DNA of 64,000 nucleotides from Escherichia coli O127:H6 str. E2348/69 (lineage in GTDB: Bacteria; Pseudomonadota; Gammaproteobacteria; Enterobacterales; Enterobacteriaceae). Location: NCBI RefSeq assembly GCF_000026545.1, contig NC_011601.1, one strand, 5' to 3'. This document shows, piece after piece, positions 44,001 through 47,000 of the stretch (position 1 is the first letter of the stretch; each line of letters starts with the position of its first letter). A program made the position numbers.

Positions 44001-47000
44001 TCCCAGCGAACGGGCTTCGTCGTCGGAAAGCGTGAGTAAATTCATGCGCCAGCGGAGAAAAAACAGGGGCAAGGAGCCTATGAGAATGATCGGTGCAGCA
44101 TAGCAGAGATCGCGTGAGGTCACGGTGGACAGCCCCCCCAGCAACCAGAAGGTAATTGACGGTAACTGGGTGTAAGGATCGGCCAGCGTTTTTATTAGCG
44201 ATATCCCCGCTCCGCACAACGTTCCTAACGCAATGCCTACCAGCACCAGGGCTAAGATCGGATCGTGGCGGGTCACCCGACGCGTAATCAACCAGACGCC
44301 CGCGACCACCATCAGCCCGCCGCAAAATGCGTACAGCTGGATGTAAACAATGGATAATCCCCACAGGATTGCCGCGCAGGCACCAAGTCCGGCACCGGCG
44401 GAGACGCCTAAGATATCCGGTGACACTAAGGGATTACGGAACATTCCCTGATAGGTGGTTCCGGCCCCTGCCAGCGCCGCGCCCAGAAACAGCGCAGCAA
44501 GAATACGCGGCACGCGGATTTGCCAGAAGACAATTTGTTCCTGCACAGGAACATTTTCTTGACGAAGAATGAGCGCCAGCAGTTGCTGCATATCGAGATG
44601 ATAAGCCCCACTTACGGCGGCAAAAGTGATACTGATAGCTGCCAGCAGCAAAATACATCCGTTTACGGTTCTCATTAGCTCGCCACCAACTTTTGATAGT
44701 CGACGTCACTGAGTGAACAATGCCAGAACAGTTGGGCGTAATGCTGCATGTCACTTTTAAACTGGCGATTGATGGCGGGATCCAGCCAGGCGTGAAGTCT
44801 GCGTAATCCCAGAAGACGGTTGATTCCCGGAGGGGCATCCAGCCAGCCAAAGGGCAGGCCACTTAAAAATAAGATGCGTTGTTCCGCAACCGCTTTCACG
44901 CCCTGCCAGAGAGGATCACGACGAATAAAATCTGCAGTAACGGCCTCCTGAACCAGAATAATATCCGGCTGCCAGCGCAGGAGATTTTCTATGGAAACCT
45001 GTGTCAGACCGTGGCGATCGGCTATTTGCGCGACGTTGTGCAAACCTAATAATTCCGCCGCCTCGGTATGCAACGAACCCTGTAAGCCCGTTTCCAGCCC
45101 TCGAGGACCGCGCGCAGCATAAAAGCTGAGGTTAGCGGCGGGTGAGGTGGCGAATGTCTGAGCTTCACCAACGAAGCGGCTGGCGAGATTGGCTTGTTCT
45201 GCGGCGCGGTGCTCTTCGCCTAACGTTTTGCCAAGCGTTGTTAACTGTTCTGCTGATTGTTCCAGTTTCCCGTTAAGCAATAACCAGGGTATTTGTGTCT
45301 GTTCGCTAACCTGCCGTGCCTGGGAGATCCAGGTTTCATCCGTATTGCCGCAATCAACGACCAAATCGGGATGTAATGCCATAAGCCCTTCCAGCGAGAG
45401 TGTGCTGGCGCGCCCGGCGAGTCGTCCCAGCCAGGGGAACTGGCGAATGTGCTCTGGCAATGGAATTAATGCCTGACGGGCAAAATCAAAAGAGGAAAAA
45501 CCGACCATTTTTTCTGGCGCGACAGCCAGCAATAGTAAATCGGCGGGCGCGCCTGCGCTGACGATGCGTGTAATGTTTTGGGCTTCGGGAAGCGTCCGTG
45601 AGGCCCAGAATTTGACTGATTGTGCAAAGGACGGCAGATGATGCAGGAACAATGTCGACGCAAGAATCTGTGTAAACCTCCGTCTGGTTAGTGACATAAG
45701 TAATATCCTGATAATTAAAGCCGCTATATACTTACACATATAGCGAAAAAGATCATGTTTGATGTCAAAATTTGTCTAAAGAGACAGAATGATTTGCTTG
45801 TTTCTTAAATAACACTTTGTTCCACAAGAAAATTGTCAGGGAGAATGGGGAGTGGGGGAAAATATAAATAGAGGTGTAATGATTAACAAGTTGATAAAAT
45901 AAAATTAAAATCTTCTCTAATAAAAGAAAATAAAGGCATAGACCGTAGAAAGAGTGGTATTTGGTATTTCGTGATGAAGAAAGAGCAATGCCAATTTTAT
46001 GCACGTAATGGCATTGCTCGATATACAGTAAAGTTAAGGCGTAGGTTCCGCCTCTTTTTGTTTTAGCGGCTGTGTTGTTGATTCACTGAGTGGACGCGTC
46101 GCCGGAACATTGTCACACGGTTGCTCTTTCGGGCAGATCAAATCCAGCATTTTCAGCGTCACGCCATTGGTCCAGCCAAAGCCATCCTGTAATGGATATT
46201 CGCCACCGCCGCCCCCTGTTCCGGTGGTGCTGACATCATATTTTTCCATCAGCTTTTTCTCCCGGTCATAGGTGTGCTGAACATTGGTCAGGAAGTGCCA
46301 GCTAATGTCCATCGCTACCTCTTTTTGCCCGTAGTTTTGTAATCCTTCTGTCGCGACCCACTGCAACGGTGCCCAGCCGTTTGGCGCATCCCATTGTTGC
46401 CCACTTTTCACCGACGTGGTGTTCAGGCCGCCTGGTTGCAGCAGATGTGTTTTCGTCGCCGTCGCCATTTTGCTGGCGCGATCTTTCGCTGCCGCATTGA
46501 CGTACAGCGGGAACAGGGCGGCCGCGGTTAACTGATTGCGCACTTTATGACTTTTCAGGTCGTAATCGGCATACCAGCCTTGTTGATCGTTCCACAGGTA
46601 TTTTTCGATCCCTTTTTGACGGGCATTTGCCAGCGTTTCGTACTGGTTTGCCATCGCGTTATCTCCGGCAGCTTTGCTGGCGCGGGAGAGGATTTTTTCC
46701 ATTTTGAACATCAAGCTGTTCAGATCGACCGGTACGATGCTGGTGGTGCGTAAGGTGTTTAACTGCTGCGGATTGTCCATCCAGCGCGAGCTGAAATCCC
46801 AGCCAGACGCAGCGGCAGAGCGCAGGTCGCGGTAAATTTCAGTGGCAGGTCGATTCGGATTGCTTTTGGCAGTGGCAATATCTTCCACCCATGACTCTGG
46901 TCGTGGCGTATCGCGATCGTCCCAGTAGCGGTTGAGAAGGGTACCATCCTGAAGTTTTACAACGCGTTTTTCCTGTTGTCCGGCTTGCAGGTTTTCAACA

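What the first reader, a model, noticed from the sequence alone, without database searches (positions are those of the whole stretch)
45698..45800. Perfect inverted repeat in the island promoter region; no convincing Fur box
GCTATAT-n8-ATATAGC (45723-45744) sits 26-47 bp upstream of the proposed binding-protein start in an AT-rich leader. I looked for a canonical Fur box (GATAATGATAATCATTATC) and found only weak partial matches (for example TAATTATCAGG). Regulation may therefore be by something other than Fur, consistent with a non-iron substrate. No regulator gene is encoded in the island itself.
Basis: seen in the sequence. Interest (0 to 1): 0.45.

Follow-up and report, generated by a model that had tools for sequence, protein, structure and literature searches.

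The report
ModE (molybdate) operator, not Fur box
The palindrome in front of this so-called iron-transporter operon matches the binding site of ModE, E. coli's molybdate-sensing repressor, so the operon is probably switched on by molybdenum shortage rather than iron shortage.

Summary
A perfect inverted repeat lies 25-48 nt upstream of the binding-protein start codon, and it extends one base further on each side than reported: CGCTATAT-N8-ATATAGCG, window 45722-45745. There is no Fur box above chance level.

The repeat matches the E. coli ModE operator consensus CGnTATATA-N6-TATATAnCG at 15 of 16 specified positions (16/16 in the CFT073, O157 and O145 alleles). That is as good as or better than the operators at modA, moaA, dmsA and napF (14-15/16). 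It is the only such hit in the 64-kb window.

A box scoring 13-16/16 sits 20-35 nt upstream of the orthologous operon in 31 of 34 loci, from Escherichia to Shewanella. The arms are invariant while the spacer and the N positions vary.

E2348/69 carries modE. The operon encodes ModD. Its permease is closest to MolB of the Haemophilus influenzae molybdate/tungstate importer, whose mol cluster is molybdate-repressed and also carries ModE-like boxes.

Most likely mechanism: molybdate-bound ModE occludes the core promoter, and molybdenum starvation derepresses the operon. This is a new member of a known kind of site. The RefSeq "iron" label for the operon is unsupported. Binding itself and the transcription start site remain untested.

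The parts
45722..45745 (-). Predicted ModE operator. In the operon sense it reads CGCTATATG-TGTAAG-TATATAGCG, with an 8-8-8 geometry.
   Evidence: It scores 15/16 on CGnTATATA-N6-TATATAnCG and is the only window hit. No simulated leader out of 20000 reached this score. A box is present at the same position in 31 of 34 orthologous loci.
45762..45767 (-). TTGACA, a -35-like hexamer placed exactly 17 nt upstream of the operator.
   Evidence: Read from the sequence. TTGAY is conserved at the same 17-nt distance in Escherichia, Citrobacter, Yokenella, Klebsiella, Raoultella, Enterobacter and Pluralibacter. Its function is inferred, because no transcription start data were available.
45754..45767 (-). 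TTGACATCAAACAT, a possible FNR-type site (TTGAT-N4-ATCAA) that overlaps the -35-like hexamer.
   Evidence: It matches 7/10 in E. coli, which is not significant alone: 277 positions in the window score exactly 7/10 and 43 score higher. The pattern TTGAY-N4-nnCAW is kept at a fixed position in about 14 diverged enterobacterial leaders, scoring 7-9/10 by my own count. Unresolved.
45706..45709 (-). AGGA ribosome-binding site, 8 nt before the start codon.
   Evidence: Read from the sequence.
44675..45697 (-). Periplasmic binding protein (PF01497) with a twin-arginine signal peptide. First gene of the operon.
   Evidence: PGAP annotates the same start. Pfam match. Its NCBIfam 'iron' hits fall far below cutoff: 31.7 bits against a cutoff of 320. 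Met1, Arg5 and Arg6 are invariant. It is 27% identical to H. influenzae MolA.
43695..44675 (-). FecCD-family permease of a type II ABC importer.
   Evidence: The best solved relative is MolB (HI1471) at 222 bits, against FhuB 173, HmuU 165 and BtuC 144. It is 42% identical to MolB.
42940..43698 (-). ABC transporter ATPase.
   Evidence: PGAP coordinates. It is 36% identical to MolC, and HI1470 is among the top solved relatives.
42118..42930 (-). Class I SAM-dependent methyltransferase of unknown substrate.
   Evidence: Pfam methyltransferase domains. No specific family or solved relative was found. The gene is conserved in the operon from Escherichia to Shewanella.
41267..42121 (-). ModD, a quinolinate-phosphoribosyltransferase-like protein.
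   Evidence: TIGR01334 scores 502.6 bits against a cutoff of 178.85. It is the only operon protein that passes a curated NCBIfam cutoff. It is 47% identical to the ModD of the H. influenzae mol cluster.
39271..41241 (-). TonB-dependent outer-membrane receptor.
   Evidence: Plug and barrel Pfam domains. No receptor subfamily passes its cutoff. The gene is conserved at the end of the operon.

Best explanation
The inverted repeat CGCTATAT-N8-ATATAGCG (45722-45745) is an operator for ModE, the molybdate-sensing transcription factor encoded in the E. coli core genome.

It lies between a conserved TTGACA hexamer and the ribosome-binding site of a six-gene operon. The genes encode a binding protein, a permease, an ATPase, a SAM-dependent methyltransferase, ModD and a TonB-dependent receptor. 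The ABC core and ModD are homologous to the MolBC-A/ModD secondary molybdate/tungstate uptake cluster of Haemophilus influenzae.

Proposed mechanism: when cytoplasmic molybdate (or tungstate) is sufficient, the ModE-molybdate dimer binds the two arms and covers the core promoter and transcription start, so the operon is off. When molybdenum is scarce, ModE leaves the DNA and the operon is transcribed.

Shown here: the consensus match, its statistical rarity, its deep conservation at a fixed position, the presence of modE in the strain, and the homology of the cargo genes.

Inferred: actual ModE binding, the sign of regulation, the transcription start site, and the transported substrate.
For: 1. 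Consensus match. The published E. coli ModE consensus is atCGnTATATA-N6-TATATAnCGat (PMC545781). The site scores 15/16 on the specified core positions, and 16/16 in CFT073, O157 and O145. The best matches in the K-12 modA, moaA, dmsA and napF regulatory regions score 14, 15, 15 and 14.

2. Specificity.
- It is the only window hit at 3 or fewer mismatches.
- In 169 kb of E2348/69 DNA, only this site and the modA operator reach 13/16 or more.
- No simulated leader out of 20000 reached 15/16.

3. Geometry. The box ends 24 nt before the ATG. The repressed modA operator ends 20 nt before its ATG. The boxes at the ModE-activated moaA, dmsA and napF promoters lie 74-199 nt upstream (coordinates).

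4. Phylogenetic footprint.
- 31 of 34 orthologous loci have a box of 13-16/16 (most 15-16) ending 16-35 nt before the binding-protein start. These span Escherichia, Citrobacter, Yokenella, Klebsiella, Raoultella, Enterobacter, Symbiopectobacterium, Serratia, Erwinia, Pluralibacter and Shewanella, with the binding protein 50-97% identical.
- Affinibrenneria, in two identical loci, has a 15/16 box about 250 nt upstream. C. braakii has lost the promoter.
- Columns C1, T4, T6, T8, A17, T18, A21, C23 and G24 are invariant in 22 distinct boxes, while the spacer and the N columns vary.
- The three E. coli polymorphisms fall on an N position, on a spacer position, or move an arm towards consensus.

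5. Independent extra boxes lie directly upstream of the receptor gene in Shewanella fodinae (16/16) and Serratia H1w (13/16).

6. Regulator present. modE is annotated in E2348/69 next to modABC and occurs in 5391 of 5426 complete E. coli genomes.

7. Cargo.
- ModD matches TIGR01334.
- The permease's best solved relative is MolB.
- The H. influenzae mol cluster has modD adjacent to molABC.
- That cluster is repressed 10-fold by molybdate through an 'unknown factor' (PMC4031551).
- It carries ModE-like boxes 31 and 35 nt before start codons, with P about 7.5e-4 and 2e-4.
- MolBC-like operons in Pectobacterium and another Pasteurellaceae locus have 14/16 boxes 18 and 23 nt before the start.

8. 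Parallels in other organisms. Geobacter modDABC has a predicted ModE site. Methanosarcina acetivorans ModE has predicted motifs (RTTATGT-N8-RCATAAY) 33 bp upstream of two 'Fe ABC transporter' operons, one of them confirmed by EMSA (PMC12327845).
Against: - No binding or expression data exist for this operon in any strain that I could find.
- The transcription start site is unknown, and no good sigma-70 -10 hexamer sits 17 nt after TTGACA. CGCTAT lacks the critical A at position 2.
- The K-12 reference sites were identified by me as the best consensus matches in regulatory regions that I recall as ModE-controlled. They were not checked against published footprints.
- The consensus is AT-rich, and AT-rich palindromes are common in leaders.
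- The binding protein is only 27% identical to MolA, so the substrate need not be free molybdate.
- The survey of ModE sites by Studholme and Pau (2003) could not be read, so I cannot say whether this site was already listed.
Confidence: 0.85

Rival explanations
1. The repeat acts at the RNA level. It would form a 5'-leader hairpin or a weak intrinsic terminator/attenuator that limits read-through from an upstream promoter.
For: The terminator scan lists it as an 11-pair stem with a 4-nt loop and a CTTTAATTAT tail. The E2348/69 RNA folds at -10.1 kcal/mol with z = -2.8. Several Klebsiella and Raoultella leaders have a T-run after the box.
Against: - The stem is A/U-rich and weak: -5.2 to -5.9 kcal/mol in the CFT073, Shewanella and Serratia versions.
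- Pair 3 is a mismatch in 8 of 22 distinct boxes. Changes are one-sided rather than compensatory, and the arm sequence rather than the pairing is what is conserved.
- The tails in Shewanella and Serratia are not U-rich.
- No Rfam family matches.
Confidence: 0.04
2. The operon is an iron-uptake system repressed by Fur through a degenerate Fur site in the leader, for example TAATCATTA at 45875-45893 or TAATTATCAGG near the start. The palindrome would then be incidental.
For: RefSeq names the binding protein 'iron ABC transporter substrate-binding protein'. The transporter families involved usually carry iron chelates. A 12/19 match overlaps a sigma-70-like promoter hit.
Against: - A 12/19 or 10/14 match is at chance level.
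- Known Fur promoters score higher.
- The candidate site is mutated in the O157 and E41-1 alleles.
- No conserved Fur-like site exists in orthologous leaders.
- All 'iron' family hits are far below their curated cutoffs.
Confidence: 0.03
3. A different, unidentified transcription factor with ModE-like half-site preference binds here. A variant is that ModE binds but activates rather than represses.
For: Assignment by consensus cannot exclude a paralogous specificity. ModE activates moaA, dmsA and napF in K-12 (my knowledge). Spacer TGTAAA and column 14 are conserved beyond what the ModE consensus requires, which suggests a second constraint on the same DNA.
Against: E. coli has one known regulator with this 8-8-8 CGnTATATA specificity. 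The box position, 18-35 nt before the start codon in every lineage, leaves no room for a downstream promoter. The homologous H. influenzae operon is repressed by molybdate, not activated.
Confidence: 0.06
4. The repeat is a chance AT-rich palindrome with no function.
For: Perfect repeats with 8-nt arms occur in about 10% of composition-matched simulated leaders.
Against: The specific sequence never arose in 20000 simulations. It is conserved at the same position from Escherichia to Shewanella although the flanks cannot be aligned.
Confidence: 0.02

Closest known systems
ModE operator of the E. coli modABC promoter (CGTTATATTGTCGCCTACATAACG)
   Same: Both are 24 bp with 8-8-8 geometry and the same CGnTATAT / ATAnCG ends. 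Both sit immediately upstream of the start codon of a periplasmic binding protein that heads an uptake operon (20 nt at modA, 24 nt here). The same regulator gene is present in the same genome.
   Different: This site is closer to the consensus (15-16/16 against 14/16). Its spacer, TGTAAA, is conserved among Enterobacteriaceae. It controls a type II (FecCD/BtuCD-like) importer with an outer-membrane receptor rather than the type I ModABC. Binding has not been demonstrated.
MolBC-A (HI1470-HI1472) with ModD (HI1473), the secondary molybdate/tungstate importer of Haemophilus influenzae
   Same: Both are type II ABC importers with a cluster-A binding protein and a ModD gene alongside. Identities are 42% for the permease, 36% for the ATPase and 47% for ModD. 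The H. influenzae genes are molybdate-repressed and have ModE-like boxes 31-35 nt before start codons.
   Different: The E. coli operon adds a TonB-dependent receptor and a SAM-dependent methyltransferase. Gene order differs. The binding protein is only 27% identical to MolA and uses a twin-arginine signal, so its ligand may differ. The H. influenzae cluster also contains ModA-like and CysU-like genes.
ModE motifs upstream of 'Fe ABC transporter' operons in Methanosarcina acetivorans (RTTATGT-N8-RCATAAY)
   Same: A palindrome with an N8 spacer lies 33 bp upstream of transporters annotated as iron systems. ModE binding to the ma1234 promoter was shown by EMSA (PMC12327845).
   Different: The organism is an archaeon. 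The arm sequence differs, its ModE has a single Mop domain, and I did not establish homology between those transporters and this one.
Fur-repressed TonB-dependent siderophore, haem or B12 uptake operons (fec, fhu, fep, btu)
   Same: The protein families and overall architecture are the same: a TonB-dependent receptor, a PF01497 binding protein, a FecCD permease and an ATPase.
   Different: There is no Fur box and no cobalamin or other riboswitch. No curated iron, haem or B12 family cutoff is passed. ModD and a methyltransferase are present instead of siderophore-processing genes.

Membership tests
ModE operator (Mo-box) | Inverted repeat matching CGnTATATA-N6-TATATAnCG (24 bp) | tested here: met
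   15/16 in E2348/69 and 16/16 in CFT073, O157 and O145. The consensus is quoted from PMC545781.
ModE operator (Mo-box) | Match quality comparable to accepted E. coli ModE sites and rare in background sequence | tested here: met
   The modA, moaA, dmsA and napF regions score 14, 15, 15 and 14 of 16. In 169 kb of E2348/69 DNA, only this site and the modA operator reach 13/16. No simulated leader out of 20000 reached 15/16.
ModE operator (Mo-box) | Cognate regulator encoded in the same genome | tested here: met
   modE (WP_001147445.1) is annotated in E2348/69 next to acrZ-modABC. It occurs in 5391 of 5426 complete E. coli genomes.
ModE operator (Mo-box) | Site conserved upstream of orthologous operons | tested here: met
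   31 of 34 loci in 12 named genera have a box of 13-16/16 ending 16-35 nt before the start. The arms are invariant while the spacer and N columns vary.
ModE operator (Mo-box) | Target genes linked to molybdenum metabolism | tested here: met
   ModD matches TIGR01334 above its cutoff. The permease is closest to MolB. The homologous H. influenzae cluster transports molybdate and is molybdate-repressed.
ModE operator (Mo-box) | Overlap with the core promoter or transcription start, as expected for a repressing site | tested here: inconclusive
   The box begins 17 nt after a conserved TTGACA and ends 24 nt before the ATG, so any proximal promoter must overlap it. No transcription start data were available, and no clean -10 hexamer was found.
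ModE operator (Mo-box) | Molybdate-dependent binding of ModE and molybdate/ModE-dependent expression | not testable with these tools
   This needs EMSA or footprinting, plus reporter or RT-qPCR assays in wild type and a modE deletion.
Fur box | Match to GATAATGATAATCATTATC (or the 7-1-7 form) above background in the promoter | tested here: not met
   The best matches are 12/19 and 10/14, both at chance level. K-12 Fur promoters score 13-15/19 and 11-13/14.
Fur box | Conservation of the site in orthologous leaders | tested here: not met
   Best matches are 9-13/19 at scattered positions in 22 loci.
Intrinsic terminator / structured leader RNA | Stable G+C-rich stem with a U-tract, and pairing maintained by compensatory change | tested here: not met
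   Folding energies are -5.2 to -10.1 kcal/mol. There are 8 of 22 mismatches at pair 3 and no compensatory double changes. The U-tract is absent in Shewanella and Serratia.
Known riboswitch or cis-regulatory RNA (Rfam) | Covariance-model match at or near the gathering score | tested here: not met
   The best hit scores 17.9 bits against a gathering score of 58, with E = 1.2.
MolBC-A type II molybdate/tungstate importer (for the operon, not the palindrome) | Permease and ATPase homologous to MolB and MolC, with modD adjacent | tested here: met
   MolB is the best solved relative of the permease at 222 bits. Identities are 42% and 36%, and ModD is 47% identical.
MolBC-A type II molybdate/tungstate importer (for the operon, not the palindrome) | Binding protein orthologous to MolA and binding molybdate or tungstate | tested here: inconclusive
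   Identity is only 27% over 239 residues, with E = 2e-10. The best solved relative is an uncharacterised protein, 4pag. Ligand binding cannot be tested here.

The most novel reading that the evidence does not exclude
The operon could be an energy-dependent molybdenum (or tungsten) acquisition route across both membranes. It is present in about 40% of complete E. coli genomes, including EPEC E2348/69, EHEC O157:H7 and UPEC CFT073, and is syntenic in Citrobacter, Klebsiella, Raoultella and Enterobacter.

In this reading, a TonB-dependent receptor and a MolBC-like importer take up a molybdenum species, possibly a chelate or a cofactor-derived compound rather than free molybdate. ModD and the methyltransferase then process it in the cytoplasm. 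The whole pathway is switched on by ModE release under molybdenum starvation.

That would be a TonB-dependent molybdenum uptake system in enteric bacteria, one that current accounts of E. coli molybdate transport (ModABC, CysUWA and an unidentified low-affinity route) do not include.
Probability: 0.4. Interest if true: 0.75.

Novelty: new member of a known kind. Interest (0 to 1): 0.5.

Why it matters
RefSeq labels this operon an iron ABC transporter in over two thousand complete E. coli genomes and in many other enterobacteria. The control region instead points to molybdenum.

Molybdoenzyme-dependent anaerobic respiration helps Enterobacteriaceae bloom in the inflamed gut. This is my own background knowledge; the review read documents virulence defects in molybdenum-uptake and cofactor mutants.

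A molybdenum-starvation-induced, TonB-dependent uptake operon in EPEC, EHEC and UPEC would add a second dedicated molybdenum acquisition route. It would also give ModD and the linked methyltransferase a testable role.

The same box in the H. influenzae mol cluster offers a concrete candidate for the 'unknown factor' that couples molybdate to molABC transcription (PMC4031551).

The prediction can be tested directly with an EMSA and a reporter fusion.

Tried and rejected
- Rfam scan of 45300-46300 at permissive thresholds found nothing near any gathering score.
- Fur was tested with the 19-mer consensus and with the 7-1-7 form, calibrated on the K-12 fepA-fes, fhuA and fepB-entC regions and checked in 22 orthologous leaders. 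All leader matches were at chance level.
- The sigma-70 scan found only an upstream TTGTTA-17-TATATT hit at 45889-45861. That hit is specific to E. coli leaders and is not above the shuffle expectation.
- The RNA hairpin or terminator reading was rejected on pair statistics.
- The start codon at 45739 was rejected.
- Literature searches for the operon found no study of its regulation. Search terms included modD, TonB, EDL933 tags Z1961-Z1966, E2348C tags and 'ModE regulon'. One paper only lists Z1966 as an uncharacterised down-regulated gene, and I guessed from memory that this tag belongs to the operon without verifying it.
- Studholme and Pau 2003, Anderson et al. 2000 and Tirado-Lee et al. 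2011 are not held in the library. I therefore could not check whether the site was already listed, nor compare against published footprints.
- A 12/16 box in Shewanella morhuae at the receptor gene start turned out to be coding sequence and was discarded.
- Structure prediction of the binding protein was considered and not run. Cluster-A binding proteins all share one fold, and I do not know the MolA ligand residues well enough to interpret a model.
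Full report
**What is there.** The window is E. coli E2348/69 DNA; the leader is 100% identical to NZ_CP059840.2. On the minus strand, downstream of treA, lies a six-gene operon. It encodes a periplasmic binding protein (45697-44675), a FecCD permease, an ATPase, a SAM-dependent methyltransferase, ModD and a TonB-dependent receptor, followed by ymgE and ycgR. The leader between the treA stop (46034) and the binding-protein ATG (45697) is 336 nt long and AT-rich.

**The reported repeat is real.** GCTATAT-n8-ATATAGC is present at 45723-45744 and extends one pair further, to CGCTATAT (45722-45729) / ATATAGCG (45738-45745).

**The start codon.** The start at 45697 is supported in four ways.
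- PGAP annotates it.
- AGGA lies 8 nt upstream.
- Met1 and the twin arginines at residues 5-6 are invariant in 16 orthologues.
- The DNA between the repeat and the ATG varies in length and sequence across genera.

The ATG at 45739, inside the repeat, is therefore not the start.

**Chance.** As a generic palindrome the repeat is unremarkable. About 10% of simulated leaders of the same composition contain a perfect repeat with 8-nt arms and a spacer of 12 nt or less. Its particular sequence is what stands out.

**Identification.** The repeat has the architecture and sequence of the operator of ModE, the molybdate-responsive regulator of E. coli.
- The E. coli consensus, as quoted by Rodionov et al. 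2004, is atCGnTATATA-N6-TATATAnCGat (PMC545781).
- The site matches 15 of the 16 specified core positions and is the only match in the 64-kb window at 3 or fewer mismatches.
- Scored the same way, the best matches in the K-12 regulatory regions are modA 14/16, moaA 15/16, dmsA 15/16 and napF 14/16. I recall all four regions as directly ModE-controlled.
- No Markov simulation of the leader out of 20000 reached 15/16, and the analytic expectation is 4.5e-5.
- In 169 kb of E2348/69 sequence, only two sites reach 13/16: this one and the strain's own modA operator.

**Variation within E. coli.** The operon and leader occur in 2148 of 5426 complete E. coli genomes, including CFT073, ATCC 25922, O157:H7 and O145. 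An alignment of seven alleles spanning 91-100% identity shows three polymorphisms within the 24 bp.
- One falls on the consensus N position (C/A). It destroys the perfect palindrome in CFT073, O157 and O145.
- One falls in the spacer.
- One changes arm position 9 from G to the consensus A.

The commoner allele, CGATATATA-TGTAAA-TATATAGCG, scores 16/16. Variation is therefore tolerated where the ModE consensus is degenerate, not where base-pairing would demand it.

**Conservation across genera.** A scan of one genome per species returned 34 loci with a binding protein 50-97% identical.
- The gene order binding protein, permease, ATPase, methyltransferase, (ModD), receptor is kept. ModD is missing in Shewanella, Erwinia and one Klebsiella-labelled genome.
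- In 31 loci a box scoring 13-16/16 (mostly 15-16) ends 16-35 nt before the binding-protein start.
- Affinibrenneria has a 15/16 box about 250 nt upstream, in two loci with identical sequence and coordinates.
- C. braakii ATCC 51113 has lost the promoter and the first 36 codons.
- Elsewhere in these 17-kb loci nothing exceeds 12/16, apart from further boxes in front of other genes. One lies directly upstream of the receptor gene in Shewanella fodinae (16/16, 14 nt before the ATG). One lies upstream of the receptor gene in Serratia H1w (13/16). One lies upstream of a small ORF in Pluralibacter (14/16).
- Among 22 distinct boxes, columns C1, T4, T6, T8, A17, T18, A21, C23 and G24 are invariant.
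- The two N columns are non-complementary in 8 of 22 boxes, and the spacer differs completely in Shewanella and Serratia H1w.

This is the footprint of a sequence-specific dimeric protein, not of an RNA stem.

**Regulator and cargo.** modE is annotated in E2348/69 beside acrZ-modABC and is present in 5391 of 5426 complete E. coli genomes. This explains why the operon needs no regulator of its own.
- Of the six products, only ModD passes a curated NCBIfam cutoff: TIGR01334 at 502.6 bits against 178.85.
- The 'iron' similarity of the binding protein is 31.7 bits against a cutoff of 320.
- The permease's best solved relative is HI1471 (MolB) of the H. influenzae type II molybdate/tungstate importer, at 222 bits. 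FhuB scores 173, HmuU 165 and BtuC 144.
- MolA and MolC also appear among the hits for the binding protein and the ATPase.
- Against an H. influenzae-type locus, identities are ModD 47%, permease 42%, ATPase 36% and binding protein 27%.

**The H. influenzae parallel.** That locus has the order modA-like, cysU-like, ATPase, modD, molA, molB, molC. The published description matches (PMC3928620).
- Rice et al. 2014 showed that molybdate represses molB 10-fold, and they attributed this to 'an unknown factor' (PMC4031551).
- The locus carries ModE-like boxes 35 nt before its first gene (14/16, P about 2e-4) and 31 nt before molA (13/16, P about 7.5e-4).
- MolBC-like operons in Pectobacterium brasiliense and another Pasteurellaceae locus have 14/16 boxes 18 and 23 nt before the start codon.
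- A predicted ModE site precedes modDABC in Geobacter sulfurreducens.
- Predicted ModE motifs lie 33 bp upstream of two 'Fe ABC transporter' operons in Methanosarcina acetivorans, and binding to one of them (ma1234) was confirmed by EMSA (PMC12327845).

**Mechanism (inferred).** The box begins 17 nt after a perfect TTGACA (45767-45762). A TTGAY hexamer is conserved at exactly that distance across Enterobacteriaceae, although the sequence in between cannot be aligned. The box ends 24 nt before the ATG, against 20 nt for the repressed modA operator. At the ModE-activated moaA, dmsA and napF promoters the boxes lie 74-199 nt upstream. Any proximal promoter must therefore overlap the box. Molybdate-bound ModE should repress by occlusion, and molybdenum starvation should derepress.

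**The -10 element is unresolved.**
- In Serratia H1w and Klebsiella BIGb0407, the left arm reads CATTAT at 17-nt spacing from TTGAC, which is a credible -10.
- In E. coli the same position reads CGCTAT or CGATAT, which lacks the critical A.
- An alternative is an extended -10 (TG-n-AAATAT) in the conserved TGTAAA spacer and right arm. Spacer column 14 is A in 21 of 22 boxes although the ModE consensus does not require it.
- That alternative could be combined with an FNR-type site, TTGAY-N4-nnCAW. By my own count it matches TTGATnnnnATCAA at 7-9 of 10 positions. It is not significant in E. coli alone.

**Rivals.**
- RNA hairpin or terminator. The scan flags it, but the stems are weak (-5.2 to -10.1 kcal/mol), one pair is broken in a third of distinct boxes with no compensatory change, and no Rfam family matches.
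- Fur. The best scores are 12/19 and 10/14, both at chance level. The window has 118 matches at exactly 12/19, and 47% of simulated leaders reach 10/14. These fall below known Fur promoters. The candidate site is mutated in two E. coli alleles and is not conserved in orthologous leaders.
- Chance. Excluded by the simulations and by conservation.
- A different factor with ModE-like specificity, or ModE acting as an activator, cannot be formally excluded without experiments.

**Comparison and novelty.** The element works like the modA operator and meets every sequence-level criterion of that family. The defining biochemical criterion, molybdate-dependent ModE binding, cannot be tested here. I found no description of this site or of the operon's regulation in the searchable literature. 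I rate it a new member of a known kind.

**Consequence.** The more interesting result concerns the operon. It is annotated as an iron transporter in thousands of genomes, yet it appears to belong to the molybdenum regulon. It couples a MolBC-like importer to a TonB-dependent receptor, ModD and a methyltransferase. The accounts of E. coli molybdate uptake read here do not mention this arrangement.

**The 'island'.** The operon is syntenic between treA and ycgR-emtA in E. albertii and Citrobacter. It lies directly after treA in Klebsiella, Raoultella and Enterobacter as well. It is better described as an ancestral locus missing from K-12-type E. coli than as a recent island.

Noticed in passing
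window 45754-45767 (minus strand); same position in L016-L031, L045, L047: TTGAY-N4-nnCAW is conserved exactly 9 nt upstream of the ModE box in about 14 diverged enterobacterial leaders. It resembles an FNR site (TTGAT-N4-ATCAA) at 7-9 of 10 positions and overlaps the -35-like hexamer. This could mean co-control by anaerobiosis, as at other ModE-regulated promoters.
   Followed up: partly
L054 2879-2902 and 5905-5928 (H. influenzae-type mol cluster): ModE-like boxes (14/16 and 13/16) lie 35 nt before the first gene of the cluster and 31 nt before molA. They are a candidate for the 'unknown factor' that Rice et al. 2014 invoked for the molybdate repression of molB.
   Followed up: partly
L041 11740-11763; L040 9061-9084: Second ModE boxes lie directly upstream of the TonB-dependent receptor gene in Shewanella fodinae (16/16, 14 nt before the ATG) and Serratia sp. 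H1w (13/16). The E. coli operon has no such internal box.
   Followed up: partly
L055 5899-5922; L056 5922-5945: MolBC-like operons without ModD or a receptor, in Pectobacterium brasiliense and a Pasteurellaceae metagenome contig, also have 14/16 ModE boxes 18 and 23 nt before the binding-protein start.
   Followed up: partly
L047 3814-6913 (Pluralibacter gergoviae): Here the operon has decayed to fragments, yet a 16/16 box is retained. Another 14/16 box (6588-6611) sits 14 nt upstream of a 95-aa ORF of unknown function. The neighbouring 287-aa ORF looked MOSC-like to me by eye, but I did not test this.
   Followed up: no
L008 1501-1555 (E. coli ST2747); L032 7700-8001 (C. braakii ATCC 51113): Two independent deletions or replacements have removed the promoter, the ModE box and the 5' end of the binding-protein gene, leaving a pseudogene.
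   Followed up: partly
L016-L021, L024, L027, L028, L030-L032, L035, L036, L042, L045: The operon lies directly downstream of treA in 15 loci (E. albertii, Citrobacter, Klebsiella, Raoultella, Enterobacter) and is followed by ycgR-emtA in E. albertii and Citrobacter. The 'island' is therefore a conserved chromosomal locus missing from K-12-like E. coli.
   Followed up: partly
window 45683-45697 (codons 1-5 of the binding protein): The binding protein has a twin-arginine (Tat) signal, MSLTRRRF, with the RR invariant in 16 orthologues. H. influenzae MolA lacks the twin-arginine motif in the N-terminus I printed. Export in a folded or cofactor-loaded state might bear on the ligand.
   Followed up: no
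window 45956-45969: Among the seven alleles aligned, only E2348/69 has a tandem duplication of AAATACC in the leader. The O157:H7 allele has an extra ATTTT repeat unit further downstream.
   Followed up: no
window 45983-46019: A hairpin, GAGCAATGCCA-N15-TGGCATTGCTC, followed by TTTCTTC lies just after the treA stop codon. It is probably the treA terminator and is invariant among the E. coli alleles aligned.
   Followed up: no
window 45861-45911: Two overlapping sigma-70-like consensus hits, one on each strand, include the 9-nt Fur-like core TAATCATTA. The number of promoter hits is at shuffle expectation. The sequence is mutated in the O157 and E41-1 alleles, and I saw no counterpart in other genera.
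   Followed up: partly
L014 (2.5-kb contig in a 'Collinsella sp.' MAG); L023 ('Serratia marcescens'): L014 encodes a binding protein 97% identical to the E. coli one and is probably a mis-binned Escherichia contig. The promoter of L023 is nearly identical to that of Symbiopectobacterium (L025), so its species label looks doubtful.
   Followed up: no
E. coli genome collection: Eight of the 2159 matches to the leader lie on plasmids rather than chromosomes.
   Followed up: no
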